Positions 23,686-48,408 of a stretch of DNA of 64,000 bases are shown here, piece after piece; within the stretch, counting starts at the first letter, position 1; the number at the start of each line of letters is the position of its first letter. The notes under the pieces were generated by a model. That model saw only the letters and a program-made list of their open reading frames with translations, searched no databases and was not told where the DNA came from. Source of the stretch: Eledone cirrhosa (lineage: Eukaryota); the NCBI GenBank assembly GCA_964016885.1, contig OZ024746.1, positions 3,596,001 to 3,660,000 on the forward strand, given 5' to 3'. A program made the translations under genes and the position numbers.

Positions 23686-24095
23686 CTGACCTCTTCCTCA
23701 CACTTCCACTCACCCACTCTCTGTTTCTCCCCTTCTCACTTCCTCCCGTTTGGCTTGTAGTGGGTCTCTTCTTGCTTACATCTCACTCACAGCGGACGGT
23801 CTGTACCTCTCTCGCTCATGAAATCCACCCAGTTTATGCTGACCGGACAACCATGTTGCTTGTTTATTTTCCTATCTTTGGTTTGCTTTTATCCTTCTAT
23901 GTTGTTTACTTGTCCCCCTCGCTTTACGCGAATTACTGGTCCCAATAACTTTTTTTAGTTATTGATCGCACCAACCTGAGGTATCTGATTTTTAATGCGA
24001 TGAAATACCAATGATGGTTGGAAAATCACTGACGAAGGACTATTTTTACCATATGTAACCCATGTGCAAACCACGCAGTATTCTTCTTTCTTCTC

Positions 24096-24098
<3 letters not shown>
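23682..24098 (+). mobile_element. Dispersed repeat family P4 (probable PLE pLTR); minus-strand copies at ~38362-38815, 40925-41470 and 43230-43320
   Basis: Shared GCACCAACCTGAGGTAT...GAAATACCAATGATGGTTGG...CTGAYGA...GTAACCCATGTGCAACCACGCAG. All copies abut (TA)n. Confidence 0.6.
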
Positions 24099-24662
<564 letters not shown>

Positions 24663-25149
24663 TGTCTGTTGACACCTAGAATATAGCTTAAGAGAAATAT
24701 GACAATAATTGTTTCTACTTTTGGCACAAGGCCAGCAATTACCCAGTGCATTACTGGTATTTTATTTTATCGACCCCGTAAGGATGAAAGGCAAAGTCAA
24801 CCTCGGCGGAGAAATAGAATTCTCTTGGCCTGTGTCACTCTAAGTAGAGCTTTAAAGAATTAGCTTTTAAAGAATTCCCCTTTTCTTTAAATCCATCAAC
24901 GATGGACACCTGAAATATAGGCATTGTTAGCTTAAGAGAAACTTAAAAATAAGGAGTGGCACCCCAATCTGAACTTGTTTATAGAATCCTTTCTGCCTTT
25001 GTCACTCTAAATATAAATTATAGCTTTGAAGAATTAGCTTTTAATGAATTCCCTTTTCTTTCAACCAATGACCTCCACCCATCCCACTCCCCACCCTCAC
25101 CTACCACCTGAAAAGATATAAATACCACAACATTTATTTTTGGACAGCC

Positions 25150-25200
25150 AGATTCCTGATGATTTCTAAAGAATGAAACAGTTCTAATCCTGTAGAATCT
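25150..25200 (+). ncRNA. Type I hammerhead ribozyme in a PLE pLTR
   Basis: AGATTC-CTGATGA-T.TTC.TAAA.GAA.T-GAA-ACAG.TTCTAATC.CTGT-A-GAATCT. All three helices pair, with a GUA cleavage triplet. Confidence 0.87.
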
Positions 25201-25354
25201 CATCTATATTAAAACTTTTATACTCTACTATGTATTGAGTACCTTACTTACTGTGGTTACCTCCGATTCAACCCGGAATAACTTACCTATATATATATGT
25301 ATATAGAGTGCTCAAACGGCATACCGCTTATGGACGCATCCAAGCAACCTTACT

Positions 25355-25424
<70 letters not shown>

Positions 25425-25472
25425 GACCAATAATAACCTTACTATATAACAACTATATAACAACTATATAAC

Positions 25473-25564
<92 letters not shown>

Positions 25565-25623
25565 CATCATATACTCACATTCTTTCGTGTACAACAATGG
25601 ATAAAATCTACCTCCACCCAGCT

Positions 25624-25705
<82 letters not shown>

Positions 25706-26003
25706 TTATATACACATATGTATATACAGGTCTGTACAAAAAGGTTAAAAGGACCAGGCCGAACGTAGGATGAAAGCCTTAAAGGATGTTGATTCACTCA
25801 GGGTAGTTGTGATAGGTGGGCCCTCATTAACTATTTAAGACACCAGAGCTAAATATATATGGTTACAGGTATACAGATTACAGGTATTTTCAAGTACATA
25901 TAGTGTATGGAATATACAAGAACTAGATTGGATCCCCTCAAAGTCGCAGGCTCATGTCCACTCACCCGTATATCCCTCCACACTCGTTTGGCATGTGATT
26001 GTG

Positions 26004-26060
<57 letters not shown>

Positions 26061-26284
26061 CTCTATCAGTCGTGTGTCACTTCGCGGAGAAGTTTCCGTT
26101 AATTTATGTAAGGAAAAAACGTGAGTTTTTAGTTCAATTTTATATCATTGTGTAACTTGACCACCCGTCTGGACCTTCAGGTGGTGGGTCAACTCATTTT
26201 CGCCCCTTCAGGGGCGGAATATCCATTTAAAAAATTTTTCTCCATCGAATCTTGGAAAAAATATTGTAAAATTTTGATTACGTT

Positions 26285-28201
26285 ATGAACGCTGCGTCCA
26301 ACGATAATGGTGGTGGAGAGGCGGTAAGACTACAAAGCTCGCAGTCAACAACGTCTTCTTCACTAGATACTATAGAGATGGAAAGACAAAATGAAAATAA
26401 AAAAACGAATTCACATCCAAACAACACAAATGACACCAAACAGCTCAATGACAACAAAAATAACAGCAAAACCAATAATGATGATAAAAGCAACAATGAT
26501 AACAACAACAAAGAAAAAAATAATGACAACGCCAATAACACCAGCATCAAAGACAACAACAACACCAAGGAAAATACGGATGATACCAACATCGGTGACA
26601 ACAAGAATAACAACAAGAATAACAACAATAATGACAACACCACCAATACGGATTCCACAAAGAAACCAAAAATCTCCTTTGCGGAGAAAGTTCAAAAGAA
26701 AGAACAATTGATATATCTCGACATAACAAATGCTGAACACCTTTTAAAGGACGCTAAGAGATATGTCACCTTCGAAAAAAATGGTGCTTTCAGCATCAAT
26801 TCTCCGGTAGAAATTCGCAAGGAAACTGCTCTCAAAACGATAGTTTTTAGGACAGTTTCCAATTCTACCCGAAAACCAGTCCAATTGTCACAGAAAGATA
26901 TTGAACTGGTTTTCAAAGATTCAATGAATGATATTGCATTCATTCAAAGAAGCAAACTTTTTGGGAGTATTTCGGTACTGATGAAGGATCAATTGACGGC
27001 CCAAAATTACTCTGTGTCGCCAATTGTATCCAACCTGTACACCTTTTTCCCTACATACATGGGAAAAAGGACACAAAAGATCAGAATCACAAGTGTCACA
27101 CCAAAGGTGAACATATGGTGGATACTGTGCGGCTTCATCAATTTTGATGAAGACAGAATACTGTCAGTAGGCAAGTCCCCCAGAGATGTATTCAATGGGA
27201 CTAGCATTGAAGTTCTGGTGCAAATGAGCCCAGAGCGAATAGCTATGATCCCACAGCGTGTACTCCTGGACGGACTTACCTACATAAACCTTTCGGTTGA
27301 GGGTAGGCGGCCTTCATGTTACCATTGCTTTAGCAGGGGTCACCTGAGGGCTTCCTGTCCTAAACTAATGAACCAAAAAAAGGCTCTTCTGCCAACACCC
27401 ATCAAAACAACACAACCACCAACACCACCACTACAACAACAACACCAACACACAAAAATAACCACAACAAACACAGTCCCACCCAACCTCACTCCACCTA
27501 AAACCACTGCAAAATCACATACAGACACAACAGCTCCCCAAGACATACCCCTCCCCAATCACACAGACGATACAACAGATGAGGCTATCTCGCCATCACC
27601 CAGTGAAGACGAGGGAGAACCCCATCGCTCGAAAAGAAAGAAAAGACATCACAAAAGCAAAAAACCAGTAAACACTACCACAAACATACAACCACCAACA
27701 CAAACAACAAAAATATCACAAACAAAACCCCCACTTCCTGAAAACAAAATACCTACAACAAAACGAAAGCACACACAAGAACTACAGACAAAAACAAACA
27801 CAACACAAGAAAATTACACTTACACTTACATAAACACTGAAAACAAAACACTAATGGAGACCATTACGAACGACCCTTCGGTTTTCACCGAAGGGAAAAC
27901 TTTCGCCCACTCTATAAAAAATAGCAAAAAAATGAACCTAAAACTGATTAGGGTCCCTATACAAACTTATAGGTCCCTAAAAGAAACATTTGAGAAGGAT
28001 GTGGGGAATTCCTGCGTGAAACCACTCAACCGCGTCCTTCTCAAATGCCTCCCCACCCCAGACACCCCCATCCCACCAGACCCCACCCCACCAAACATCT
28101 GCGTCCCCACCCCACCGGAAACCACCACCCATCCAGACAACCCCTCCAACACCCCCATGGAAATCGTGCGGCCTGGTCCCCAGGAGGCGAAGGGTGAGTG
28201 A
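26285..28201 (+). CDS. Tx1 ORF1 (gag-like nucleic-acid-binding protein, 638 aa)
   Basis: Asn-rich N-terminus, SFAEKV motif, CX2CX4HX4C zinc knuckle (CYHCFSRGHLRASC) and Thr/Pro-rich C-terminus. Stop codon lies 33 nt before ORF2. Confidence 0.88.
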   Translation: MNAASNDNGGGEAVRLQSSQSTTSSSLDTIEMERQNENKKTNSHPNNTNDTKQLNDNKNNSKTNNDDKSNNDNNNKEKNNDNANNTSIKDNNNTKENTDDTNIGDNKNNNKNNNNNDNTTNTDSTKKPKISFAEKVQKKEQLIYLDITNAEHLLKDAKRYVTFEKNGAFSINSPVEIRKETALKTIVFRTVSNSTRKPVQLSQKDIELVFKDSMNDIAFIQRSKLFGSISVLMKDQLTAQNYSVSPIVSNLYTFFPTYMGKRTQKIRITSVTPKVNIWWILCGFINFDEDRILSVGKSPRDVFNGTSIEVLVQMSPERIAMIPQRVLLDGLTYINLSVEGRRPSCYHCFSRGHLRASCPKLMNQKKALLPTPIKTTQPPTPPLQQQHQHTKITTTNTVPPNLTPPKTTAKSHTDTTAPQDIPLPNHTDDTTDEAISPSPSEDEGEPHRSKRKKRHHKSKKPVNTTTNIQPPTQTTKISQTKPPLPENKIPTTKRKHTQELQTKTNTTQENYTYTYINTENKTLMETITNDPSVFTEGKTFAHSIKNSKKMNLKLIRVPIQTYRSLKETFEKDVGNSCVKPLNRVLLKCLPTPDTPIPPDPTPPNICVPTPPETTTHPDNPSNTPMEIVRPGPQEAKGE

Positions 28202-28234
28202 TCTCTTTTCCTCTTTTAACTTTTCAGCACCAAC

Positions 28235-31200
28235 ATGGCCAATATAAGAGTTGGATGTGTGAATGTACGCGGCCTGGGGATGCCCTGGAAACAGGGCAAA
28301 CTCTTAAACGACCTCAGGTCGCACAGTTTGGATGTGGTAGCCATTTGCGAGTCCAGGATCCACGGCGAGCGACAGCTGGCCCCCATCTTCGATGACTTTG
28401 AGATCTACGCATCTCTCTGTCAACCGGGGGGTGGGGGCGGAGTTGCCGTTTTGCTGCGGAAACACCTGGGCCTCGTAACACAGACGGTACATCTGGACCC
28501 GGAGGGTCGACTGGTGGTCCTAGACGTTGACGGTAGTGAAGGTGGAGCGTTCAGGCTGGTGGCCGCATATGCCCCATCCGGGACACCGCGGCCAGACTTC
28601 TTCAAACGTCTAGAGACTTTTCTGGGAACGTCCCGCTCCTTGCTTTTAGTGGGGGACTGGAATGGAATCCTAGATGCACGTTGGGACTATGTGGGAGCAT
28701 GTCCCGATAAAGGGGGGTGTAACAGCCTCAAACAGTTAATCGACCGATTTGACCTGGCCGATAGATATCGACTAGATTTTCCGACTGCGCCACTGTGGAC
28801 GTGGAGTAATCGTAGCGGAACATCTAGATCGTACCTAGATAGGGTTCTAGTTAGAAATAAGGATAGGGACATGTTAAGCTGTCCACAAATGTTCATGGTT
28901 GCCTATTCAGATCACAAACTAGTGACCTGCATGGCCAACCTTGATAGAACCCATAGACAAGGACCCGGCTACTGGAAGCTGAACTTGTCGTTACCGACAA
29001 GCAAAGCCTACAGTAGACGGATTAGCACTTTAGTTAAACAGCACTTGACAGGGGCCATTGTCAACAACAGATGGTGGTACTCTCTCAAGAGGGCAGTTAG
29101 ATTAGACTCGATAGTTTTTAGTAAAGAATTAGCGTTAGATAGAAATAGAACCGAGAAGGAACTGGTAGATAAAGTAGAAGAGGCAATTAGAAGTGGCAAC
29201 GTAGCCAGCGTGCTAGCAACGAGAACGGCCTTGGACCAGTTCTTCGACGCAAAGCACGAGGGCTGCGTTGTCAGAAGCAAAATACGTGCTCTGGGAAACG
29301 AGGGAGCCAAAGCTGTTAGCTGGGCCCGAGTGACGGAGGCAAAAAGTGGCAACAAGTCCACGATTCGGTCTTTGAAGGACCAAAACGGACGCGTGATACG
29401 TGAGCCGAAGCAGATGTGTGCGGCTTTTCAGCGGCACTTTGCTCGGCTGTTCGGGGGGAGCGGCGCGCCGGGAGAGGCTATGGATTTCGGTCCATACCTC
29501 GACGGCCTACCGCGACTCTCGGACAGCGAGGCGAAGTTCTGCGAAAAGCCGATTTCAGCCACTGAGATAGGGGACGCGCTGAGCCAATGCGGCAAACGCA
29601 AATCTCCAGGTCTCGACGGTCTACCCTACGAATTTTACGTAGCAATGCCGGACTTATTCTCCGGTCTCCTGGAAGCGGTCTACTGCAACTGGCAACAGAA
29701 CGGGAGAATTCCCAGTTCTGTAACCGGGGGCGTGGTCACACTAATCAGGAAGGACGAGAATAAGGGGGATGACATAGGCAACTTCCGGCCCATAACTCTG
29801 CTAAACACAGAGTTACAGATTTTGGCCAAGGTGTTGGCAAAGAGGCTGGCGCTTGTCGTCGAGAACCTGGTGGGAGAAGCGCAGACATGCGCGATCCCGA
29901 CCAGGTCCATACACGACAACCTCCACCTCATGCGATACATCATAGAGAGGGTAGGGTGTAAACCCGGCTTCGGTGGGGCCCTGATCAACTTGGATCAGTC
30001 TAAGGCTTTCGATAGGGTTGACCATCGTTACCTGGATGCGGTGCTCGAGGCGGCAGGCTTCGGACCCGTGTTCAGGGGCTGGATTGCTGCAATGCACAAC
30101 AGCAACATCTGCTCAAGGGTCAAGGTGAACGGTTACCTCTCGGAGCCGTTCCATATTACGCGATCCATTCGACAGGGATGCCCTCTCTCCTCCCTTCTGT
30201 ACGTACTGACTCTCGAGCCACTACTGCGGAAGCTGGAGCTATTGCAGGGCATCCCTCTGGAACCGGGACTGCGGAAAGCGGCGTCGGCCTACGCCGACGA
30301 CGTGACAGTAATGGTGTCGAGCGCCTCGCAAATCGAGGAAGTCGGCACCTTACTAAAGGAATACGAAAGTCTCACAGGAGCGAAGCTGAACCGGGACAAG
30401 TCCATCGGTTTGCAACTCGGATCGTGGAGAGGCAGACCGATGCCTTCCGATGGCGTCGTCGGACGCTGGACGGAAGGACCGGTAAAGCTGCTCGGGGTCT
30501 GGTTTGGTCCGGACCTCCAGGTGGAGAAGAACTGGAACGAAGTGACGGCCAAGGTGTTTGCACTCACCCAGAAGTGGGCCGAGTGCAAACTATCCTTGAA
30601 AGGTCGAGCGGAGGTGGCGAACACTTTTATAGCGTCCGCCATCTACTACCGCTTGACCGTCGTGCCTTGTCCAGCCAAAACGCTCGCCAAAATGGAGCGC
30701 GCCCTCTTCCGATTCCTTTGGAAGAGGCGGGCTCCTTTGGTAAGAAGATCCATCTGCTGCCAACACCCTTCTAACGGAGGGCTGGGGATGCCGTGGTTGA
30801 CGATGCGCAAACACGCGCTCAGGCTGCGGCATCTCTACGTATTCCTCACCGGACAACCGGTGTGGGCCCCGTTCGTGAGGCGAGCCTTCCCACGACTCGT
30901 CTCGCTGACCGAGCTGCAGTCCTGGGTCAAGCAGAGACCGAGGAAAATGGGCGACTGGCACATCGAATGTGCTCAGGCGCTCACAGCCCTCTGGCAGGCG
31001 GACCCGGCGATCAGTGGAGACTCCACTTCGTCATTCTATAGAGGGTTGGTCCGCAGCAAGTGCGACGACGCGCTCGGTGAAACTCTAGGCGTGGAGGAAG
31101 ATGAACTGGCCAGTCTGTTCGGTAGGACCTTCCGCCCGGGACCGATGGACAACTTCCAAAAGTCCCTGGCCTGGCAGTGCTACCGAGGAGCTCTACCAGT

Positions 31201-31672
31201 TCGAGACAAGCTCTACAGACATGGGCGCCCGGGCAGGGACCCTGCAAAAAAGATCTGTCCGAGGTGCGTGCGAGACGAAGAAACCGTCGCGCACGCATTC
31301 ATACACTGCCCGGGCGTCACTGACCTGTGGGGCTATGTAGAACGACTATTGTCGCGGGTGGGACCAATCCAGTTGACCACCGAGTCCATTGTCATGATCA
31401 AACCGCCACCCTCCTTCAAAAACGAAGGAGAGGCGGTTTTCCTTTGTGTGATAGCTATGGCGAAAGAGGTTGTATGGTGGACAAGGTTGAAAGGGCTGAG
31501 GTCAGACACCTTTCTCTCCGGCCAACAACTGATTCTTTTTTTCAAATACCACTTTGGAAGAAGAATCAGGATGGAGAGAGAGGTGCTGTACCCCAGCAAG
31601 TTTTATGAAAGGTGGGTGAAAGTGGCGAGAATGGCCCGAGTGAATGGGCCTTCTCTCTATATCAGCCTGTAG
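28235..31672 (+). CDS. Tx1 ORF2: AP-endonuclease, reverse transcriptase and C-terminal zinc finger (1145 aa)
   Basis: APE motifs NVRGL, CESR, GDWN, YLDR, SDH. RT motifs KSPGLDG, FRPITLLN, DQSKAFDRVDH, RQGCPLS, YADD. C-terminal CPRC-X8-H-X4-C. Confidence 0.96.
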   Translation: MANIRVGCVNVRGLGMPWKQGKLLNDLRSHSLDVVAICESRIHGERQLAPIFDDFEIYASLCQPGGGGGVAVLLRKHLGLVTQTVHLDPEGRLVVLDVDGSEGGAFRLVAAYAPSGTPRPDFFKRLETFLGTSRSLLLVGDWNGILDARWDYVGACPDKGGCNSLKQLIDRFDLADRYRLDFPTAPLWTWSNRSGTSRSYLDRVLVRNKDRDMLSCPQMFMVAYSDHKLVTCMANLDRTHRQGPGYWKLNLSLPTSKAYSRRISTLVKQHLTGAIVNNRWWYSLKRAVRLDSIVFSKELALDRNRTEKELVDKVEEAIRSGNVASVLATRTALDQFFDAKHEGCVVRSKIRALGNEGAKAVSWARVTEAKSGNKSTIRSLKDQNGRVIREPKQMCAAFQRHFARLFGGSGAPGEAMDFGPYLDGLPRLSDSEAKFCEKPISATEIGDALSQCGKRKSPGLDGLPYEFYVAMPDLFSGLLEAVYCNWQQNGRIPSSVTGGVVTLIRKDENKGDDIGNFRPITLLNTELQILAKVLAKRLALVVENLVGEAQTCAIPTRSIHDNLHLMRYIIERVGCKPGFGGALINLDQSKAFDRVDHRYLDAVLEAAGFGPVFRGWIAAMHNSNICSRVKVNGYLSEPFHITRSIRQGCPLSSLLYVLTLEPLLRKLELLQGIPLEPGLRKAASAYADDVTVMVSSASQIEEVGTLLKEYESLTGAKLNRDKSIGLQLGSWRGRPMPSDGVVGRWTEGPVKLLGVWFGPDLQVEKNWNEVTAKVFALTQKWAECKLSLKGRAEVANTFIASAIYYRLTVVPCPAKTLAKMERALFRFLWKRRAPLVRRSICCQHPSNGGLGMPWLTMRKHALRLRHLYVFLTGQPVWAPFVRRAFPRLVSLTELQSWVKQRPRKMGDWHIECAQALTALWQADPAISGDSTSSFYRGLVRSKCDDALGETLGVEEDELASLFGRTFRPGPMDNFQKSLAWQCYRGALPVRDKLYRHGRPGRDPAKKICPRCVRDEETVAHAFIHCPGVTDLWGYVERLLSRVGPIQLTTESIVMIKPPPSFKNEGEAVFLCVIAMAKEVVWWTRLKGLRSDTFLSGQQLILFFKYHFGRRIRMEREVLYPSKFYERWVKVARMARVNGPSLYISL

Positions 31673-31937
31673 GTTGAGGAAAAGGAGGAGGAGAGGAAAG
31701 GAGTACAAGCTCTTCGTACTCCTGGAGATGAGGGTTGCACATTTTTTTCGGGGGTCTGTGTTACCCATATAAACTGTCTCCCTCTATTGGGGAAAATCGA
31801 CTAACTTTTAAATTCCATCTGTGATAACATTTTACACGTTTTTATTGTATGTAAACTTCCCCCTTTGTATTTGTCCCCTTCTTTTGTGCCCCTGTGGCTA
31901 ATAAAGAAATATATCTATCTATCTATCTATCTATCTA

Positions 31938-32929
31938 GCAGTCCTGGGTCAAGCAAAGACCGAGGAAAATGGGCGACTGGCACATCGAATGTGCTCAGGC
32001 GCTCACAGCCCTCTGGCAGGCGGACCCGGCGATCAGTGGAGACTCCACTTCGTCATTCTATAGAGGGTTGATCCGCAGCAAGTGCGACGACGTGCTCGGT
32101 GAAACTCTAGGCGTAGAGGAAGACGAACTGGCCAGTCTGTTCGGTAGGACCTTCCGCCCGGGACCGATGGACAACTTCCAAAAGTCCCTGGCCTGGCAGT
32201 GCTACCGAGGAGCTCTACCAGTTCGAGACAAGCTCTACAGACATGGGCGCCCGGGAAGGGACCCTGCAAAAAAGATCTGTCCGAGGTGCGTGCGAGGCGA
32301 AGAAACCGTCGCGCACGCATTCATACACTGCCCGGGCATCACCGACCTGTGGGGCTATGTAGAACGACTATTGTCGCGGGTGGGACCAATCCGGTTGACC
32401 ACCGAGTCCATTGTCATGATCAAACCGCCACCCTCCTTCAAAAACGAAGGAGAGGCGGTTTTCCTTTGTGTGATAGCTATGGCGAAAGGGGTTGCATGGT
32501 GGACAAGGTTGAAAGGGCTGAGGTCAGACACCTTTCTCTCCGGCTAACAACTGATTCTTTTTTTCAAATACCACTTTGGAAGAAGAATCAGGATGGAGAG
32601 AGAGGTGCTGTACCCCAGTAAGTTTTATGAAAGGTGGGTGAAAGTGGCGAGAATGGCCCGAGTGAATGGGCCTTCTCTCTATATCAGCCTGTAGGTTGAG
32701 GAAAAAGAGGAAGAGAGGAAAAGGGTACAAACTCTTCGTACTCCTGGAGATGAGGGTTGCACATTTTTTCGGGGGTATGTGTTACCCATATGAACTGTCT
32801 CCCCCTATTGGGGAAAATCGACTAATTTTTAAATTGCATTTGTGATAATATTTTACACATTTTTATTGTATGTAAACTTCCCCCTTTGTATTGTCCCCTT
32901 CTTTTGTGCCCCTGTGGCTAATAAAGAAA
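31938..32929 (+). mobile_element. 5'-truncated second copy of the same Tx1 family, head-to-tail with the first
   Basis: Matches ~30916-31909 with a few percent substitutions, including CAA>TAA at 32545. Same AATAAAGAAA end, followed by ATCTATCT. Confidence 0.93.
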
Positions 32930-33050
32930 CATATCTATCTAGTTAAATAGTTAATTAGTTCATTGTTACATATATATATAAATAAATTTACACCACATGT
33001 ATATATATATATATATATATACTCCACATGTATATATATATATACCCCAC

Positions 33051-33101
<51 letters not shown>

Positions 33102-33199
33102 GAACATGCGAAGAACTACCCCCCAGAAACGAGAGTAAAATAATGAGTTTTACTAGGAATTACCCGTATTTTGTTTAATTTCATTGTTTTCACTATTTG

Positions 33200-33314
<115 letters not shown>

Positions 33315-33358
33315 TGTTTAAACGTAATATAACTTCTGCGTATTTGTTGTCGCTATAT

Positions 33359-33418
<60 letters not shown>

Positions 33419-33456
33419 CAATTAGTAGTGTTAAGACTCGATATCAGAAACTTTAC

Positions 33457-33523
<67 letters not shown>

Positions 33524-33797
33524 TATGTAGGTAAAAGTAATAACAAAAATAACGAAACATAACAAAAGAAACAGCACAGTACATGGGAGAAATATATGTA
33601 TGTGTGTGTGTATGTATATATATATGTATATGTATGTATATATAGATGTATATATACTTGGGGAGGGTCATATTTGTGTAATAATATTGCCAGAATTAAT
33701 AATAGAACACACTCACTGTTGGTTGGTTTTCGCTTCTGTATCTTTTAAATCAGTTAATTTAATTTACTCGGTCCCCCCTCAATGGTTAACATTGATG

Positions 33798-33877
<80 letters not shown>

Positions 33878-33886
33878 GAGAGAGAG

Positions 33887-33937
33887 AGTTTCCTGATGAT
33901 TTCTCATGAATGAAACAGTTCTAGTCCCGTAGAAGCT
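33887..33937 (+). ncRNA. Hammerhead ribozyme, tandem copy 1
   Basis: AGTTTC-CTGATGA-TTTC.TCAT.GAAT-GAA-ACAG...CCGT-A-GAAGCT. Confidence 0.75.
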
Positions 33938-33945
33938 TTGCTATA

Positions 33946-34081
<136 letters not shown>

Positions 34082-34108
34082 CATATATATATATATATAG
34101 AGAGAGAG

Positions 34109-34159
34109 AGCCTCCTGATGATTTCTCATGAATGAAACAGTTCTAGTCCCGTAGAAGTT
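34109..34159 (+). ncRNA. Hammerhead ribozyme, tandem copy 2
   Basis: Same motif as copy 1, with an imperfect helix I. Confidence 0.65.
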
Positions 34160-34167
34160 TTGCTATA

Positions 34168-34275
<108 letters not shown>

Positions 34276-34286
34276 GAGAGAGAGAG

Positions 34287-34337
34287 AGCTTCCTGATGAT
34301 TTCTCATGAATGAAAGAGTTCTAGTCCCGTAGAAGCT
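34287..34337 (+). ncRNA. Hammerhead ribozyme, tandem copy 3
   Basis: Perfect helix I AGCTTC/GAAGCT. The GAAAG variant weakens helix III. Confidence 0.65.
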
Positions 34338-34365
34338 TTGCTATATATATGTATATATATATATA

Positions 34366-34522
<157 letters not shown>

Positions 34523-36174
34523 AAGTTCGTATATTTGTATAAAATAAAAATCCAAGTATATAAAAAGCAATATTAATAAACTTACCTGTCTGTTGTAGGC
34601 ATCAATAGGTATATGGTAAATCCAAAATTCCTATATAACGTTCTCAATATTGACCGAACATTATCTGGCTTTACTCAATATATTTATTGATCAAACCCAG
34701 ACGGCAACTTCTATCGATACTCGCACAAGAGAGCCCTTACTATTCTAGTTGTAAGAATGAACTAAACTTCAACACATCTTTGGTGTAGGTGGGAGTCGAA
34801 ACATAGGAACATGGTCTTGGGAAGGGAAGACGACGCTTGGGCGTAAGTCGATGACTATATATATATATTAGTTTGTCTATAGTATATATAACTATCCAGT
34901 ATCCCAGGACTTTGTTTTAACTTTGTTAAACGTATGTGTGTATGTGTGGCTGAGTGAGGTAGTGTGTGTGTGTGAGTATGAGCGAGTGAGTGTGTGTGTG
35001 AGAGGGAGTGTGTGTGTATGTGTGTGCGTATGAGAACGAATCAGAGTGTGTATGTTTGTGTGTGTGTGTGTGTGTGTGAGTGAGGAAGTGTGTGTGTGTG
35101 TGTGAGTATGATCGAGTGAGTGTGTGTGTTTGTGAGGGAATGTGTGTGAGTTAGTGAAGGTGTGTGTATGAGAACGAGTGTGTATATATAAATAAACTGA
35201 TCGTTGTGATAGAGGAGTGGGAGTTAAGCAGACGACAACGACGCAGACGACAGCTAGAGCAGAAGGTATATAACAATTATGAATGGCAACAATAATCGCC
35301 GTTACAAAGTGACGACGGAAGAGGCGAGAGAGAGGATTTCCCATACGTTGTCATATAGTCAGTGACAATAGGGGACGATATCTGGATGATGGTTGTGGTT
35401 GTGGTTGTGGTTGTGGTAGCTGTGGTGTGGTGGTAGTACTGCTGCTCCGGAGGTGGTGGTGGTGCTAAAGGTGGTGGTGGTGGTTTTAGTAGAGCGTCAT
35501 AATAGCACAGTAGAAACTACCTTACCATTCCACTTATAATGTTCTATATATACCCCTCATACCCACACCTACACACATACACTCGCTCACACACACACTA
35601 CACACTCCCTTTCACCCACACTACATAAGAACCACATTTCCTCTTAGTCTATCCGATGGTATAATAACATTAAGTCCATAACGATTTTAAAACCTGGATA
35701 TCTAACATAAAAGCACCTAGCCTTTTTTCCGCGTAGCCACACACAGACATACAAATATATATTATTACGTCCCTTTACGGTGTGAGTTCAAATCCCGCTG
35801 AGGTTGACTTTGCCTTTCATCCTTACGGGGTCGATAAAATAAAGTACCAGTAATGTACTGGGTAATTGCTGGCCTTGTGCCAAAAAGTAGAAACAATTAT
35901 TACTATATATAGGAAAAAGTATGACCCCGACGGCTGAGCTCAAGCCGTTTCGACTAAGTATTGAGTAATAATAATAAATGTGAAGATTAAAATCCAAAGA
36001 AGGCTCGATAAGGATAAATATATATCAAATATATAAGAACTCTAGAGCAAATATTTATTAAAATAACAGATTAAAGTTTTAGCAAATAATCGCTGCTTTC
36101 ACCCTTAACGGGATCTTCTGAAACTAGTTAAGGGTGAAAGCAGCGATTCTTTGCTTAAACTTTAATCTGTTATT

Positions 36175-38999: not shown

Positions 39000-39060
39000 A
39001 ACAGCTCTGTTCTATACATAGAGCACTATTTTTCCTTTGCTTTTCCTTCGGAATTACCTA

Positions 39061-39115
<55 letters not shown>

Positions 39116-39119
39116 ACAT

Positions 39120-39186
<67 letters not shown>

Positions 39187-39190
39187 ACAT

Positions 39191-39283
<93 letters not shown>

Positions 39284-39646
39284 TCAAATCAAAATGTCGA
39301 GTTACAAACTCTCAATAGTCCCCTACAATCAAACGAGCTCAACTTCAATCTCTGTATTATGGAATCAAAAAGAAAGAAAAAAAATGTCTTCCAACTCTCT
39401 GTTTCCTACTTTAATACCTGTCTTCTTTCTCATCTATTTCCTCCACTTTCTCTTACTCCATCTCTCCACACCCCTCTCTTCTTTCTCTTCTATTTCCTCC
39501 ACTTTCTCTCACTCCATCTCTCCACACCCCTCTCTTCTTTCTCTTCTATTATGTTTATCTTTACGTCCCTCCTTCTTTTTCCTCAATCACTCAAACTTTC
39601 CGATTCTTCCTATTACATATATATAAATATATATATATAATCTGAC

Positions 39647-39685
<39 letters not shown>

Positions 39686-40540
39686 CAAAGGAATTGTGGC
39701 AAGGAACCAGATGGACCATAACGCACCAGAGTACTCAATACTTAGGGTAGTAGAGTGGGCAATAGGAAAAAGTATGACCCCGACGGCAGAGCTCAAGCCG
39801 TTTCGACGGCTATTTCTGGACGAAATTAGAATTTTTAGCCTGGTGAATAAATAGCCGAACTTTTCAAGGGGGGTACTTCCTTATATGGGAAGATTGTAGT
39901 TGCCGAGAGGATTGGTTAAAATTTATTGTAAACACAAATAAGTCTATCATGGCATTTGGTGGGAGGTAGGGGTGGCTGAACTTGCCTGTAGAACAATAGG
40001 GGAGTGAGTGGAACGGTCAAGCGTTGAAAGTGATATGTATACAGCAGATTCTAAGGATAGTGTATGAAGTGGGGGAGGGAGGATATAGAATAGGTAAATC
40101 GAATGAGAGTTGGAGACAATAAAAGATACTAGAAAGAAATAAAAAATATATAAAATTAGATAGTGAGAAAAAAATAAAAAAATCACAATGCTATCTTACA
40201 ATTACAGGTTAATAAGTTGAGAATAGAAAAAACTTGTAGAATGAGTAGTACCAGAACTGATACAAAATTAAAGGGGTTTAACACGTCTGCTATAAGTAGT
40301 TAGTAAAACATATTAGGCCAATTCTATCTTAAAATTACAGGGGTGGGGGAACTGATGCTACAGAGGCCCGATGGGCTGCATCGGGGTAGGCGAAGGGGAA
40401 AAGCAGACGAGGAAGAAAATAGGGGGTGGAAGAAAGTGATAAGATGAGACAGGGGGAAGAAGAAAACAAAGAGGAAAAGAAAAGAAAAGAAAAGAAAAGA
40501 GATACATCTACCTAAGTAAGCTGGGGTTTCCCCTAACTTA

Positions 40541-40682
40541 TGCAGACACAGACACATTCGTGCATACACACACGTACGCCTACATGCGTGTATATATATA
40601 CATATATCTATGTATGTGGGTGTGTGTGTGTCTACGCATGTAGGCGTACATGTGTGTATGCACGAATGTGTCTGTGTCTGCA
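40541..40682. repeat. Inverted repeat with ~48-bp arms
   Basis: TGCAGACACAGACACATTCGTGCATAC... and its reverse complement. Confidence 0.85.
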
Positions 40683-40773
40683 TGGCACACTCTACTATTA
40701 CCCACTCTACTACCCTAAGTATTGAGTACTTTGGTGCGTTATGGTCCATCTGGTTCTTACCACATTTCCTTCG

Positions 40774-40930
<157 letters not shown>

Positions 40931-41534
40931 GTTAGTCCTTCATCAGTGATCTTCCAACCATCATTGGTATTTCATCGCTTTAAAAACCATATACCTCCGG
41001 TTGGTGCGAGCAACGGCTAAAAAAAGTCGTTGGGACACGTAAATAAAGGGAACACGAAAGTGTAAACAAACAAAGATGGTGAAGCAACGAAAAGTGAGGA
41101 AGAAGGAGTCAAGTCCCAAATTTCCATGAATATAAGTTCGGTGAAATCGTGAACGAGAGAGAATAAAGACCATCAAACCTGGTTGGAATGTAAGCAAGGA
41201 AGGAATTCCGCACAGGTCTAACGGGAGGAAGAAGGGATCTAGTCTGTGAAATCGTAGACGAGAGAGAGAAAAAAAGCGAACCTGCCAGACCAAGGGTGCG
41301 AAAGAAAAGAATTACGCACAGGTCAAACGGGAAGAAGGAGGAGGAGGAGAGGTAGTAACAGAGAGTGAGTGAGTGAAGGGTGAGGAAGAGGCTAACAGAA
41401 AGAGTGACTGTTAGAGAGAGTAAAGATACAGAGAAAGAGGAAGCAGTAAGAACGAAATAGACGGGTCATATATATATATATATATATAATCTCACTATAT
41501 ATATAACCCACTATATATATATATATATATAATC

Positions 41535-41579
<45 letters not shown>

Positions 41580-41748
41580 CCTCACCGTATCTTTCCCAAC
41601 AGTCTGTCCTCTCTCGACATTCCCTCTATATTTCCGTAATTACTTCCTCCACTCTTACTTCCCTTTCACCGTCTTTCCCCCCACTCTCTCCAACACTCTC
41701 TCTAATTTCCCACACTTTTGTGTCACTGCAGTGTAAGTGTCTGTGAGA

Positions 41749-42121
41749 CATATACACCAGGTCCCGACACAAAGGAACCAAACTCCCACTTCCTCGGTCT
41801 CACCCACTCTCTCCCTATCTCTCATATACACCAGGTCCCGACACAAAGGAACCAAACTCCCACTGTCACTTCCTCCGTCTCACCCACTCTCTCCCTATCT
41901 CTCATATACACCAGGTCCCGACACAAAGGAACCAAACTCCCACTGTCACTTCCTCCGTCTCACCCACTCTCTCCCTATCTCTCATATACACCAGGTCCCG
42001 ACACAAAGGAACCAAACTCCCACTGTCACTGCCTCCGTCTCACCCACTCTCTCCCTATCTCTCATATACACCAGGTCCCGACACAAAGGAACCAAACTCC
42101 CACTGTCACTGCCTCCGTCTC
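41749..42121. repeat. 80-bp minisatellite, ~4.7 copies
   Basis: Unit starts at 41749, 41823, 41903, 41983 and 42063. Confidence 0.95.
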
Positions 42122-42191
42122 TCCCGCTTTCGCAAATTCTCACAATTATGAACAAATGGGGTCCACGATATGGCCGATCCGTTGCCCCGTT

Positions 42192-42550
42192 AGACTGGCC
42201 ACCCCCACTGGTGGACTGGCCTCCCCCACTGGCGGACTGGCCTCCCCCACTGGCGGACTGACCACCTCACTGTCTCGTCGGACTGGCCTCCCCCACTGGT
42301 GGACTGGCCTCCCCCACTGGCGGACTGACCACCTCACTGTCTCGTCGGACTGGCCTCCCCCACTGGCGGACTGACCACCTCACTGTCTCGTCGGACTGGC
42401 CTCCTCCACTGGTGGACTGGCCTCCCCCACTGGTGGACTGGCCACCTCACTGTCTCGTCGGACTGGCCTCCCCCACTGGTGGACTGGCCTCCCCCACTGG
42501 TGGACTGGCCTCCCCCACTGGTGGACTGGCCACCCCACCACCCTGGTGGA
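42192..42550. repeat. GC-rich 21-bp repeat with a higher-order interspersed unit
   Basis: GGACTGGCCTCCCCCACTGGY units punctuated by CCACCTCACTGTCTCGTC. Confidence 0.9.
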
Positions 42551-43187
42551 CAGACTAGAGCTGAAACAAATACCAGAAATCCTTCTATCCAACAACGACC
42601 AACTCTACACTGGGACAGTATCATCTTCAATGGTGTCAGCCGTTCTAGCCTTACACAACCCCTTCCACTCTACTTTATCTCATACCACTCCTTCTCTTTC
42701 TAGTTTTCTGACAAAGCCACTACCACCACCACCACCACCACCACCACCACCACCACCACCACCATCAACAACACCAACACTACTACAACAACCACCACCA
42801 TCCATACAACCACCACCACCACCACCATCAACAACACCACCACCACCACCACCACCACCACCACCACTACTTCTATATAATTCAGTAAGGAGTGTATAGT
42901 GATGACATCATGTCAGTACGTCAGTGTAGAGCAGGAGACAGAAGCCCCACTGGACCGCCAACCGCCCCCACACCACATTAATTAGACGCTACCAACATTA
43001 AACTCGGGAATAGCCCCCTTCTATCATAACACAAGTTGACACGTGAAACTAGGAAAAGTAGGCCATGTATCTAGGTTTATACACTCACACACACACATAT
43101 ATGTATATAAATATATATATATATATATATACATATATATACTCACACACACACACACATATATATATACATATATATATACACATA

Positions 43188-43235
<48 letters not shown>

Positions 43236-43320
43236 AAAATGGAGCGCTGCGTGGTTGCACATGGGTTACATATGAATAAAATTAGTCCTTCATCAGTGAT
43301 CTTCCAACTTTCATTGGTAT

Positions 43321-43395
<75 letters not shown>

Positions 43396-43442
43396 TATAT
43401 ATATATACACACACACATACACACACATATATATATATATAT

Positions 43443-43494
<52 letters not shown>

Positions 43495-43543
43495 ATATGT
43501 GTGTGTGTGTCTGTGTGTGTGTATATATATATATATGTATGTA

Positions 43544-43615
<72 letters not shown>

Positions 43616-43625
43616 CGCGTGTGTT

Positions 43626-43703
<78 letters not shown>

Positions 43704-43774
43704 CATACATATATATATATATACACACACACACATATATACACACACACACATATATATATGTGCGCGTGTGT

Positions 43775-46700
43775 TTGCGCCTCCACCACCCGGGCCCATT
43801 GAACGGCTTTCGTCCCCTCGTGTCTTAGAGCACACGTTCTAGCTCTGACAACGCAGCCTTCATGCTTTGCATTGAAGAATTGGTCGAGTGCCAATCTCGC
43901 CGCAAGCACGTCAGTTGTGATGCCTGTCCTAAACGCCTCTTCTAGCTTTCTAACTAACTCTCCCTCTATCACTACTCCTTTGCTAAACCTTATCGATTCT
44001 ACTCTAATAGCCCTTTTCAGGGTAAACCACCACCTGTTGTTGACGATCCCACCCGTCAACGCACGCTTAACTAATCGCTAATCCGGTCTCTAAGCATTGC
44101 GCGCCGGGAACGACGCGTTCAGCTTCCAGTAGCCGGGCCCTTGCCTATGGAGTCTATCTAAGTCAACTTCACAAATCACAAATTTGTGGTCCGTGTACTC
44201 GACTACTTTAAATTGTGGACAACCTACACTTATTTGTTTCCCTACAGAATACCCTATCTAAATACGATCTGGATGACCCGATGCGGTTTTCCCATGTCCA
44301 CATTGGCACATTCGAATAATCCAGTCTATACGTGTCAGACAGTTTAAAACGTCTGAGCAGGTTGTTGAGGCTTTTACACCCTCCTGCCCTGTCTACTAGC
44401 CCCACATAACCCCAGCGTGCATCTAAGATACCGTGCCAGTCGCCCACTAACACTAAAGAGCGGGACGTTCCAAGAAAGGTCTATAGACGTCTGAAGAAAT
44501 CTGGCCGTCCAGCCCCTGTTGAGGCTTAGACGGCTACTAGCCTGAAAGCATTGCCTTCGCTGCCGGTCACGTCCAGCACCACCGACTTACCTTCTGGGTC
44601 CAGGAAGATGGCCCGTATGGCGATCCAAGCCTCTCCGAAAAAGCACGGCAACTCCTACCCCCGATCCTGGACGGCTGGGAGATGCGTATACATCGTAGCC
44701 GTTCAAGATCGGTGCGAAGGCTCGTGCTTCGGAGATTCTGGTTTCGCTGATGGCCACTACATCTATGTTTAGTGACCTGAGGTCTTTGAACAGGTGACCC
44801 TGCTTCCAAGACCCCAAGCCACGTACATTCATACTGCCTATTCTAAGTACGGCCATGTTGGATGAGAAACGGGGTAAGTGAGAAAGGATCACTTACCTTG
44901 ATCGTGTGGTGAAGGGACAGTAGAACCGTCCCTTTGGCTGGTCATGGGTGTTTCCAAGAGGATGTCGGTGTATATCCTCTTGGTAACCGACCCTCTGAAG
45001 TCTCCAACTGTGTTGGGGAATTTTTCTTTTAAAAGTTTGTAATGTTCTATTTTGATTTCAATGATATTTATGTTTTTCGGGAGAGTTCTTGGTGTTGGTG
45101 GGGTGTAGTAGTTTTTTTCTGTGATGTCTGTGTGCTGCTTTATATCTTGTAAGAGTTCTTTATTTGCCATGTTTATGGCTGTGTATTTTGGGGTGGAGGG
45201 GTGATTTTGTTGCTGTTTTCTTGTTGTTGCTGTTGTGTGTGTGTGTTTTGTTGTGTTTGCGATGTTGGTGTTTTTGGTGATGCTGGTGGTGGTGTGGTTG
45301 TTGTTGGTGTGATGCTTGTGGTGGTGATGGTGGTGGTGTTGCTGCAAGTCTCCTTGCAGCCTTTACCCCTCTGTGTTTGCCTTCGCTTTTGGACGGTGAA
45401 GCTAAGGGTTTTTTTCTTTTTTCTTTTTTTTTTTGTGGTAGACCGTTTGCCACTTCCCTCCCGCCTCATACTCCATGTCGGATTCCGTGGCGTCTGGGAG
45501 GGGGATGAGCTTCACTGCTGTTGGTGGTGGTAATGGAGCCCGCTCCGGCGATTTTGCCGCCGGTGTAGCTACTGCGACTATTAGTGTTGCCGCCACTGCT
45601 GCCGCTGCTTTAGTTGTCCGTGGCCTTGGTATGGGTGCCACGGACGTTGCCCTCCTACTCACCATGGAAGGGTCTTCTGCCTATGTTGCCTGCACTGCTC
45701 TTGGTAGCAGCAGATCAAGCATCGGAAGGAGGGGGCCCCTCTTCTTGGCTGTCTTCTGCGGGCAGAAGGGTTACCGTAGGGCGCCTTCCTTCCACGCTTA
45801 TAGGGAGTTGGAGTCCTTCCTCGAGGTCTATGATGTCTGGAATGGCCTCGATGCACTCCTGGTCTGTTTGTATTAGCATTTGCATGCCTATTCCTGACCA
45901 GTTCTCTCTTCCTATTCTCTGTATTTGAAGTATGGTGGGTCTTCTCCCCGAGTGCAGCAAGTACAGACGCGGCCAGCCAAGGTATGGGAACGTCGGGCGG
46001 GACCTGGGTCACTTTGACCCTCACAATTTTCTGCCCGCAGTAGGAGGGCAGCAAGACTATCCCCCCACTCTTTAGGGTTTCCAAAGAGTGAGACTTCGCC
46101 TCTTGGGATGTGGCGAAAAGTACGTCTACTGTGGCGTACTTTTTGCCTCGGGTGATGTGGTTTTTGCGCGTCCAGACGCATCCCAAGGTCTTTTGGATTT
46201 GAGCCTTCGTGGTTCTCTCCACCCGATGTGACATTTTGCTTACGGTGGTCTTTGCTGCTGGTATTTGAAGAAATCGAGTGGAGGTTTCAGGGAAACTCTA
46301 TTATCATTTCTAGTCACCATGGCTCTTGCGACTGCCATCTTCTCCTCCGTGACTAGCACTGTCTCTATATTTCGGGCCATATCTGCGAAAGAAGTGGCCC
46401 CTTTTTCAGCGGCACCATTATTGCTGCCGCTACTGCTGCTACTGGTCTTGTTGGTGCTGTTGCTACTGCTACAAACGGTGTTGTTGGTGTTGTTGCTGTT
46501 ATCACTGTTGTAGTTGTGTTTTTGGTGCCACCGTTGTTGTTGTTTTCGGTGAAATTTGTATTGTTGCTGTTGGTGTTGTTGTTTATTTTCTTGTTAGTGG
46601 TGTTAATATCGTTGTTGCATTTGTTGTCATTTTTTTCTGTTGTCTGTATTTTGGTTGTCGCTGTTGTAGTTGGTGGGGTAATTTTTAAAAAATTAGTGTT

Positions 46701-47008: not shown

Positions 47009-47009
47009 A

Positions 47010-47290
47010 ATAATAATAATAATAATTGTTTCTACTTTTGGCACAAGGCCAGCAATTACCCAGTGTATCACTGGTACTATAATGGTGATGGTTTCTGATT
47101 TAGGCACAAAACCAACAATTTGGGAGGAGGGGAAAGTGGATTAAATCGACCTCTGTACGTTACTGGTACTTTATTTATCGATCCTCTAAGGATGAAAGAC
47201 AAAGCTAACCTCGGCGGGATTTGAACTCAGAACATAAAAGGCCATAACTCTATGCCGCTAAGCATGTTGTCAGACGCTCTACCGATTCAC
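47010..47290 (-). mobile_element. SINE plus an additional SINE 3' fragment
   Basis: GGGATTTGAACTCAG, core, and tail with (TAA)n. Confidence 0.8.
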
Positions 47291-47640: not shown

Positions 47641-47672
<32 letters not shown>

Positions 47673-47807: not shown

Positions 47808-47816
47808 ACTCAGAGT

Positions 47817-48348: not shown

Positions 48349-48408
<60 letters not shown>

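What the first reader, a model, noticed from the sequence alone, without database searches (positions are those of the whole stretch)
26005..32940. Intact Tx1 LINE and a tandem truncated copy both inside an (ATCT)n tract
Seen: (ATCT)~15 - full-length element - (ATCT)6 - 5'-truncated copy - (ATCT)2. The copies differ by a few percent, which fits two separate insertions into one tract better than a recent duplication. This is the only substantial ATCT array in the window. Known: Tx1-clade APE elements include microsatellite-specific families (Kibi on TC, Koshi on TTC). Inference: this is a young, possibly active GATA/ATCT-repeat-specific LINE with both ORFs open.
Basis: partly seen in the sequence, partly recalled or inferred. 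Interest (0 to 1): 0.75.

Follow-up and report, generated by a model that had tools for sequence, protein, structure and literature searches.

The report
Young LINE that targets ATCT microsatellites
This is a complete, very young LINE retrotransposon, present in many near-identical copies that almost always sit inside (ATCT)n microsatellites in one orientation, so it likely targets that repeat when it copies itself, which would be a new target for a known kind of site-specific mobile element.

Summary
The layout is (TATC)16, a 5,844-bp element with both ORFs open, (TATC)6.5, a 994-bp 5'-truncated copy 97.1% identical to it, then (TATC)2.5. This is the only ATCT array in the window.

ORF2 has endonuclease, reverse transcriptase and zinc-binding domains. 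Its best solved relative is human L1 ORF2p. ORF1 carries a conserved CCHC knuckle.

Genome-wide flanks support ATCT specificity:
- 30 of 30 full-length 5' ends abut TATC-type repeats; 15 of these tracts lie in unrelated DNA.
- 30 of 30 3' ends are followed by TATC units.
- 18 of 20 copies truncated at different points abut ATCT.
- 15 of 22 positionally sampled (ATCT)>=8 tracts carry this lineage, always in the same orientation.

The family is very young. Twenty-one full-length copies differ by 0.36% on average, and 11 of 20 others keep both ORFs.

An older related family in the same genome follows the same rule with (ATT)n.

Tx1-clade membership could not be tested, because no named reference sequence was obtainable. 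I found no ATCT/GATA-specific LINE in the literature searches. Verdict: a new member of a known kind (microsatellite-specific LINEs), of moderate interest.

The parts
26004..26067 (+). Upstream (TATC)16 tract, the remainder of the target microsatellite. The last 12 nt (26056-26067, TATCTCTCTATC) are probably the element's own 5' end.
   Evidence: TRF; sequence. TCTCTATC directly before AGTCG is shared by 27 of 30 copies, including two with no longer tract upstream.
26068..31911 (+). Full-length LINE, 5,844 bp, with both ORFs open.
   Evidence: At least 40 copies are 100% identical over the first 333 bp and at least 40 over the last 222 bp.
26068..26284 (+). 5' UTR (217 nt) with two hairpins whose loops both read CUUCAG.
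   Evidence: MFE -56.2 kcal/mol, z = -2.4. No Rfam family matched.
26285..28201 (+). ORF1, 638 aa: Asn-rich N-terminus, conserved core, CCHC zinc knuckle (CYHCFSRGHLRASC, residues 345-358), Pro/Thr-rich tail.
   Evidence: Pfam zf-CCHC is below threshold (E 0.24). The knuckle is conserved at the same position in diverged relatives.
28235..31672 (+). ORF2, 1,145 aa. The endonuclease spans residues 22-227 (28298-28915), the reverse transcriptase 511-755 (29765-30499, YADD box present) and zf-RVT 976-1032 (31160-31330).
   Evidence: (Exo_endo_phos 2e-12, RVT_1 6.3e-27, zf-RVT 4.1e-06), (human L1 ORF2p, 3.3e-51).
31673..31911 (+). 3' UTR ending in ...GCCCCTGTGGCTAATAAAGAAATA (AATAAA at 31900-31905). 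There is no poly(A). The terminal motif is conserved across related families.
31912..31937 (+). (TATC)6.5: the full copy's microsatellite tail and/or the rest of the target tract.
   Evidence: All 30 of 30 other 3' ends are followed by TATC units.
31938..32929 (+). Older 5'-truncated copy (element positions 4849-5842), 97.08% identical, with a premature stop at 32545-32547.
32932..32941 (+). (TATC)2.5: the tail of the truncated copy and the end of the tract.

Best explanation
The locus holds a full-length two-ORF LINE of the L1/Tx1 group and an older 5'-truncated copy, both lying in one orientation inside an (ATCT)n microsatellite, and the family likely inserts there specifically by target-primed reverse transcription.

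Shown:
- The architecture is a CCHC-type ORF1 followed by an ORF2 with endonuclease, reverse transcriptase and zinc-binding domains.
- The 3' end has AATAAA, no poly(A), and a (TATC)n tail.
- ATCT repeats lie on both flanks of full-length copies and of differently truncated copies, on many chromosomes.
- The orientation is strictly the same throughout.
- Tandem arrays are common.
- Copies are near-identical and about half of those sampled keep open ORFs.

Inferred:
- The endonuclease would nick the (AGAT)n bottom strand.
- The RNA would end in (UAUC)n, because transcription reads into the downstream tract past the AATAAA. That tail would pair with the nicked strand to prime cDNA synthesis in variable register.
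- The cDNA's other end, which carries TATCTCTCTATC, would join within the upstream repeat.
- Each insertion would thus leave a usable ATCT tract on both sides. This would explain the tandem arrays and the window's pair: the young full-length copy landed in the tract 5' of the older truncated one.
- The family was likely active very recently and may still be active.
For: Domains.

5' junctions: 40 of 40 scored heads are 100% identical. In 30 of 30 loci read (29 others plus this one), 3 to 36 TATC-type units lie directly 5', and 28 of 30 have at least 5. In 15 of 30 the tract is preceded by unrelated DNA; in the other 15 it is preceded by another LINE 3' end.

3' junctions: 30 of 30 are followed by at least 1 perfect TATC unit, 26 of 30 by at least 2 and 13 of 30 by at least 5 (median 3.5, maximum 17). 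Of the 20 further full-length copies, 19 have a TATC tail.

Truncated copies: 18 of 20 distinct 5'-truncated copies, at 17 different truncation points, abut ATCT repeats.

Unbiased tract sample: the first 22 (ATCT)>=8 tracts on contig C1 span 22.2 Mb, about one per Mb. Of these, 15 carry this lineage within 1.5 kb, and all hits run in the same direction relative to the ATCT reading. The other 7 are LINE-free, so free targets exist.

Window background: there is no other ATCT tract in 64 kb.

Youth: 21 full-length copies have a mean pairwise divergence of 0.355% (range 0.034-0.895). Of 20 others, 11 keep both ORFs at 638 and 1,145 aa and 3 more keep ORF2. All 150 scored ORF1-core matches are at least 97% identical, and 76 of 150 keep the 643-codon open frame by my count.

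Register: the junction of the unique 3' end with the repeat varies within the family (GAAATA-TATC versus GAAAT-CTATC).

Sister family: its ORF2 is 55-69% identical. It has a related 3' terminal motif, (ATT)n directly 5' of 11 of 11 heads found, and an (ATT)n tail on 3 of 3 copies with a complete 3' end. The tail matches the target in both families.
Against: - No nicking, RNA or de novo insertion data exist. No run on record as RNA held the stretch.
- The samples are biased. The tools scored only the best, 100%-identical matches, so older copies are under-sampled.
- There are exceptions. L049 is a truncated copy with no ATCT upstream. L070 has a 3' end that runs into (TC)n. L012 and L029 have only 12 nt of ATCT-like sequence 5'.
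- Because target and tail are the same repeat, neither the nick site nor any target-site duplication can be read from the junctions.
- The sequence data cannot separate endonuclease specificity from RNA-tail pairing.
- Identical tandem truncated units (L034/35, L042/43, L053/54) show that some arrays grow by local duplication, not by insertion.
- Clade placement was not tested.
Confidence: 0.85

Rival explanations
1. The LINE is not target-specific. It only carries a microsatellite 3' tail (tail 'seeding', as recalled for some CR1/L2-type LINEs), and the upstream ATCT tracts are tails of earlier copies.
For: Every copy ends in (TATC)n. Of 30 heads, 15 lie directly behind another LINE's 3' end. 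Of 22 long ATCT tracts, 15 are LINE-associated, so many tracts may derive from tails.
Against: In 15 of 30 heads the 5' ATCT tract is preceded by unrelated sequence. Of 20 copies truncated at different points, 18 still abut ATCT. LINE-free tracts with no 3'-end motif exist (7 of 22). A random inserter would show random 5' flanks, given about one long tract per Mb.
Confidence: 0.04
2. Insertion is random, but only copies inside ATCT tracts survive or accumulate (passive accumulation in harmless or low-recombination DNA, as proposed for Drosophila Waldo-A/B near CA repeats; passages of PMC3812793).
For: Microsatellites are harmless landing sites. The window is extremely rich in simple repeats.
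Against: The copies are too young for selection to have sorted them (0.36% divergence). Junctions lie exactly within the repeat and always in one orientation (30 of 30 heads, all hits at 15 of 15 occupied tracts). The far commoner (TA)n, (AC)n and (TC)n tracts nearby are not used.
Confidence: 0.04
3. The window's pair arose by local duplication or unequal crossing-over between ATCT tracts, not by two insertions.
For: Identical tandem truncated units exist elsewhere (L034/35, L042/43, L053/54).
Against: Here the two copies differ by 2.9% over 994 bp and have different 5' ends. The full copy is within 0.07-0.58% of 20 other dispersed copies.
Confidence: 0.03
4. Classification rival: the element belongs to the L1 group but not to the Tx1 clade as defined by RT phylogeny (an L1-clade or unnamed lineage). 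It would then have evolved microsatellite specificity independently of Kibi and Koshi.
For: The only named relatives obtained are human L1 ORF2p, an L1 endonuclease variant and auto-named plant and fish proteins at 22-27% identity.
Against: Among endonuclease-type LINEs, reported target specificity is concentrated in the Tx1 and R1 clades (passages of PMC4640811). ORF1 proteins of the RRM/CCHC type in non-mammalian animals are described as consistent with Tx1 (passages of PMC5203782). No R1-clade endonuclease structure matched at E up to 10.
Confidence: 0.3

Closest known systems
Kibi and Koshi (Tx1 clade, teleost fishes)
   Same: Two-ORF endonuclease-type LINEs inserted specifically into microsatellites, (TC)n and (TTC)n (passages of PMC4494074 and PMC3812793). 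They work like this element.
   Different: The target here is the tetranucleotide (ATCT)n. ORF2 has no named close relative, so relatedness to Kibi/Koshi was not tested. The host is an unnamed animal genome of 3.0 Gb. The commonest taxon among ORF1 look-alikes is Arthropoda, which is a lead only.
Crocodilian Tx1 families preferring (TTCC)n/(TTTC)n (Tx1-1_Crp and others)
   Same: Tetranucleotide microsatellite preference in L1/Tx1-group LINEs. The paper's criterion is that more than 20% of flanks are of one repeat type (sections 6 and 15 of PMC4494074). That criterion is far exceeded here.
   Different: The motif differs. Here specificity is near-total in the samples, and the family is very young and abundant.
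Waldo (ACAY)n and Mino (AC)n (R1 clade, insects)
   Same: Endonuclease-type LINEs that are microsatellite-specific (passages of PMC3812793).
   Different: They belong to another group. This ORF2's best solved relatives are L1 proteins, and no R1Bm or TRAS1 endonuclease matched at E up to 10 (that these are in the PDB is recalled).
Dong (R4 clade), (TAA)n-specific
   Same: Microsatellite-specific. Its target is the same repeat type as that of the sister (ATT)n family seen here (passages of PMC3812793).
   Different: By recall, Dong has a restriction-like endonuclease rather than an AP-type one. The families here are AP-endonuclease-type.
Human L1
   Same: The ORF2p domain order is the same (endonuclease, reverse transcriptase, C-terminal Cys motif), and L1 ORF2p is the best solved relative (3.3e-51 over residues 4-856).
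   Different: This element has no poly(A) tail and a microsatellite tail instead, a CCHC-type rather than a Transposase_22-type ORF1, and strict target choice.

Membership tests
AP-endonuclease-type LINE of the L1 group (L1 + Tx1) | ORF2 with an N-terminal AP-like endonuclease, a reverse transcriptase and a C-terminal Cys/His motif | tested here: met
   Exo_endo_phos 2e-12, RVT_1 6.3e-27, zf-RVT 4.1e-06 (27.8 bits against a cut-off of 27.5). Best PDB match is human L1 ORF2p at 3.3e-51. Catalytic-type columns are invariant in a 14-sequence alignment.
Tx1 clade | RT-domain phylogeny placing the element within Tx1 (the clade is defined by RT phylogeny; PMC4494074) | not testable with these tools
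   No named Tx1 reference could be obtained. Two homologue searches, a cluster look-up and an atlas search gave only unnamed or auto-named proteins.
Tx1 clade | ORF1 protein of the RNA-binding-domain plus CCHC-knuckle type (described as consistent with Tx1 in non-mammalian animals; PMC5203782) | tested here: inconclusive
   A CX2CX4HX4C knuckle is present and conserved in relatives. Pfam zf-CCHC is below threshold in all (E 0.24 here; 6e-4 to 0.54 in 5 of 6 relatives). The RNA-binding fold is not shown: the single-sequence model has pLDDT 29.9 and hhalign to a ZCCHC3-like ORF1 aligns only the knuckle. Atlas look-alikes are CCHC/RRM clusters, a lead only.
Target-specific LINE (criterion of PMC4494074: more than 20% of flanks of one repeat type) | The same repeat type at the flanks of many independent copies | tested here: met
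   30 of 30 5' flanks, 30 of 30 3' flanks and 18 of 20 truncated copies.
Kibi / Koshi | Target is (TC)n or (TTC)n | tested here: not met
   The target is (ATCT)n. One of 20 full-length copies ends against (TC)n (L070).
Poly(A)-type L1 | 3' poly(A) tail | tested here: not met
   The 3' end is AATAAAGAAATA followed by (TATC)n in 30 of 30 loci.
R1 clade (Waldo, Mino) | RT/endonuclease relatedness to R1-clade elements | tested here: inconclusive
   With the endonuclease domain alone, the only endonuclease-family PDB matches are an L1 endonuclease variant (2.7e-4) and bacterial exonuclease III-type enzymes. No R1Bm or TRAS1 endonuclease matched at E up to 10. No phylogeny was run.
LINE with a 5' self-cleaving (HDV-like) ribozyme, as in R2 | A ribozyme at the 5' junction | tested here: not met
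   No Rfam ribozyme matched at E up to 1 in 25900-33000.

The most novel reading that the evidence does not exclude
Target choice in this LINE lineage is set largely by base-pairing between the microsatellite tail of its RNA and the nicked target, not by the endonuclease alone. Two related families in one genome share a related 3' terminal motif but carry different tails, (TATC)n and (ATT)n, and each sits in the matching microsatellite. If this reading is right, the lineage is a naturally retargetable, RNA-guided integrator. It would also make and maintain its own genomic niche: 15 of 22 long ATCT tracts sampled are tied to it.
Probability: 0.3. Interest if true: 0.75.

Novelty: new member of a known kind. 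Interest (0 to 1): 0.5.

Why it matters
Microsatellite-specific endonuclease-type LINEs are known for (TC)n, (TTC)n, (TTCC)n/(TTTC)n, (AC)n and (ACAY)n. How they recognise their targets is described as not well understood (passages of PMC3812793).

This family would add a new tetranucleotide target. It comes with unusually good material: many near-identical full-length copies with open ORFs, and an older sister family that uses (ATT)n. That pair sets up a direct test of endonuclease specificity against RNA-tail pairing.

It also matters for genome biology. This lineage appears to occupy most long ATCT tracts in a 3-Gb genome and to build tandem arrays. It therefore shapes which microsatellite loci exist and whether they are usable as markers.

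Tried and rejected
- **Named Tx1 reference.** Two homologue searches (with the single protein, with a 14-sequence profile), a cluster look-up and an atlas search gave no usable names, so no clade tree was built.
- **Relative in another species.** A metagenome scan for the 40%-identical relative P0007, meant to read its flanks, found nothing.
- **Earlier notes of this scan.** None by place, sequence or words.
- **Sequencing runs.** No RNA holder was listed. Contigs of four runs were laid on 25730-32965. The unique 5' flank bin had no cover in any run, so insertion polymorphism at this locus could not be tested. The element itself is covered at very high summed word depth.
- **Rfam.** No ribozyme or other family was found in the element. 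The four hits at E 0.03-0.19 are far below their gathering scores and are treated as chance.
- **ORF1 fold.** The single-sequence AlphaFold model was useless (mean pLDDT 29.9), so no fold search was run. BLASTP and hhalign against a fish ORF1-like region with ZCCHC3-type RNA-binding domains aligned only the zinc knuckle.
- **Literature.** Searches for an ATCT/GATA-specific LINE showed none in their listings. I opened one candidate, PMC3272025, and found it irrelevant. Kojima and Fujiwara 2004 is not held. Figure 3 and the supplements of PMC4494074, and Repbase itself, were not seen and could list such a family.


Full report
**What is there**

Tandem Repeats Finder reports (TATC)16 at 26004-26067 and (TATC)6.5 at 31912-31937. 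Between them lies a 5,844-bp element (26068-31911). ORF1 is at 26285-28201 (638 aa) and ORF2 at 28235-31672 (1,145 aa), in the same frame and separated by TGA and TAA stops.

After the second tract comes a 994-bp copy (31938-32929). It matches element positions 4849-5842 at 97.08% identity and has a premature stop. It is followed by TATCTATCTA. No other ATCT-type array exists in the 64 kb: 16 of 16 pattern matches fall in these tracts, against 0.01 expected.

**What the element is**

ORF2 carries an AP-type endonuclease (2e-12), a reverse transcriptase (6.3e-27, YADD present) and a zf-RVT motif (4.1e-06). Its best solved relative is human L1 ORF2p (3.3e-51 over residues 4-856), with R2 proteins far behind (1e-22 or weaker). 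The endonuclease domain alone matches an L1 endonuclease variant (2.7e-4). It matches no R1-clade endonuclease at E up to 10.

ORF1 has no Pfam family above threshold. It does carry a CX2CX4HX4C knuckle, which is conserved at the same position in relatives 28-57% identical. The 3' UTR ends in GCCCCTGTGGCTAATAAAGAAATA and runs straight into (TATC)n, with no poly(A). No Rfam family, ribozymes included, matches the element.

This makes it an endonuclease-type LINE of the L1/Tx1 group with a CCHC-type ORF1. Passages of PMC5203782 describe such ORF1 proteins in non-mammalian animals as consistent with Tx1. Passages of PMC4640811 state that target-specific endonuclease-type LINEs fall in the Tx1 and R1 clades.

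I could not obtain a named Tx1 sequence. Clade membership therefore stays untested.

**Is it ATCT-specific?**

The window's genome (3.0 Gb) was searched.

- *5' ends.* The first 333 bp gave 1,153 first-look candidates. All 40 scored are 100% identical.
  - In 30 of 30 loci read (29 others plus this one), the head AGTCGTG... is directly preceded by 3-36 TATC-type units, and 28 of 30 have at least 5.
  - In 27 of 30 the last units read TCTCTATC.
  - In 15 of 30 the tract follows unrelated sequence. In the other 15 it follows the 3' end of another LINE of this lineage.
- *3' ends.* The last 222 bp gave 717 candidates, and 40 of 40 scored are 100% identical. All 30 of 30 loci continue with at least 1 perfect TATC unit, 26 with at least 2 and 13 with at least 5 (median 3.5, maximum 17).
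- *Truncated copies.* This is the decisive point against 'the repeat is just part of the element'. Of 20 distinct 5'-truncated copies with 17 different truncation points, 18 abut ATCT repeats. The exceptions are a rearranged copy, whose extra 45-bp piece itself follows an ATCT tract, and one copy (L049) with no ATCT.
- *The converse sample.* I took the first 22 (ATCT)>=8 tracts along contig C1, which span 22.2 Mb, or about one per Mb. Of these, 15 carry this LINE or relatives (ORF identities 46-100%) within 1.5 kb. Every hit runs in the same direction relative to the ATCT reading. The other 7 are free of it and lack its 3' motif.

Chance, a tail-only model and passive accumulation do not fit these numbers.

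**Age and activity**

Twenty further full-length copies measure 5,813-5,845 bp. Of these, 11 keep both ORFs at full length, 3 keep ORF2 with a shortened ORF1, and 6 have a broken or shortened ORF2. Across the 21 copies, mean pairwise divergence is 0.355% (minimum 0.034, maximum 0.895).

The ORF1 core gave 24,558 first-look candidates, relatives included. All 150 scored are at least 97% identical, and by my count 76 of 150 keep the 643-codon open frame.

These samples are the best-scoring matches and so lean towards the youngest copies. Recent activity is an inference. No RNA holder was listed, and the locus's unique flank was not covered in the runs laid.

The window's truncated copy is 2.9% diverged, so it is older. 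The two copies are separate insertions.

**How it likely works**

What is shown is the one orientation, repeats on both sides, and a variable register where the unique 3' end meets the repeat (GAAATA-TATC versus GAAAT-CTATC within one family). Tandem full-length pairs about 5.86 kb apart are also shown, for example C11:44087598 and 44093459. So is a shared TATCTCTCTATC in front of the head, even where no longer tract is present (L012, L029).

The rest is inferred:
- The endonuclease would nick the (AGAT)n strand.
- The RNA, reading past AATAAA into the tract, would end in (UAUC)n and pair with the nicked strand to prime reverse transcription.
- The far end of the cDNA, itself ATCT-like, would join in the upstream repeat.
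- Each insertion would leave a tract on both sides, inviting the next insertion.

Some arrays also grow by local duplication. Identical truncated units in tandem appear at three loci.

**A sister family**

The window also holds a degraded relative on the minus strand (43772 to about 47008). Its ORF2 residues 1-371 are 55-62% identical to this element's. Its head is preceded by (ATT)6.

Genome copies of this family match the window copy at 81-88% identity. The head was found in 11 of 20 loci, and all 11 are preceded by (ATT)n, mostly the tail of a tRNA-like SINE. Six longer stretches were fetched. The 3 that have a complete 3' end finish in ...GCCCTTGTGGCCAATAAAGAAACC followed by (ATT)n.

So two related families share a related 3' terminal motif, and in each the tail matches the target.

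**Comparison and novelty**

In function it is like Kibi (TC)n, Koshi (TTC)n and the crocodilian (TTCC)n/(TTTC)n Tx1 families (sections and passages of PMC4494074). It is also like Waldo and Mino of the R1 clade (passages of PMC3812793).

Seven literature searches listed no ATCT/GATA-specific LINE. Repbase and the figure and supplements of PMC4494074 were not seen.

I rate it a new member of a known kind, with moderate interest (0.5). The tail-equals-target pair is the part worth an experiment.

Noticed in passing
window 43772-47008, minus strand: A degraded, 3'-cut relative of the LINE (ORF2 residues 1-371 at 55-62% identity, ORF1 at 26-34%). Its family sits behind (ATT)n (11 of 11 heads found) and ends in (ATT)n (3 of 3 complete 3' ends). 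It is an older, second microsatellite-associated family.
   Followed up: partly
window about 47009-47290, minus strand: A tRNA-like SINE (...GGTAGAGCG...GTTCAAATCCCGCC...) ending in (ATT)n lies directly upstream of that relative. The same SINE tail precedes most other copies of the (ATT)n family. It may be that family's partner SINE as well as its landing site.
   Followed up: no
L034/L035, L042/L043, L053/L054 (contig C1): Identical 5'-truncated units with their ATCT tracts are repeated head to tail 2-3 times. This points to local tandem duplication between tracts rather than repeated insertion.
   Followed up: no
G000 C1:22191511-22208576; also C11:44087598/44093459: Long ATCT tracts spaced about 5.8 kb apart mark tandem arrays of full-length elements from different subfamilies.
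   Followed up: partly
window 26160-26225: Two adjacent hairpins in the 5' UTR both have the loop CUUCAG (z = -2.4). No Rfam match. Function unknown.
   Followed up: partly
runs X4, X5, X8 laid on window 25730-32965: Pieces of the element at about 98-100% identity occur in contigs of runs labelled as other organisms (B, C, E). In run X5 the summed word depth is as high as in the likely source species. This could reflect close relatives or shared ancestry. Horizontal transfer was not examined.
   Followed up: no
window 24000-35000 and 39000-49000: Simple-repeat density is very high: (TA)n, (AC)n, (TC)n and (TGTA)n every few hundred bases. There is also an 80-bp tandem repeat x4.8 at 41749-42125, a 21/113-bp repeat at 42193-42536 and (CCA)50 at 42717-42867.
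   Followed up: no
L031, L040, L047, L061, L062 (3' flanks): Other subfamilies with different 5' heads (AGCTGTCGTCTGTTC..., AGACGTGTGTAAC...) and different 3' ends (GGTAAATAAAGAAAT, GGCAAATAAATAGAAA) also sit in ATCT tracts. The ATCT habit is therefore shared by a diversified lineage.
   Followed up: partly
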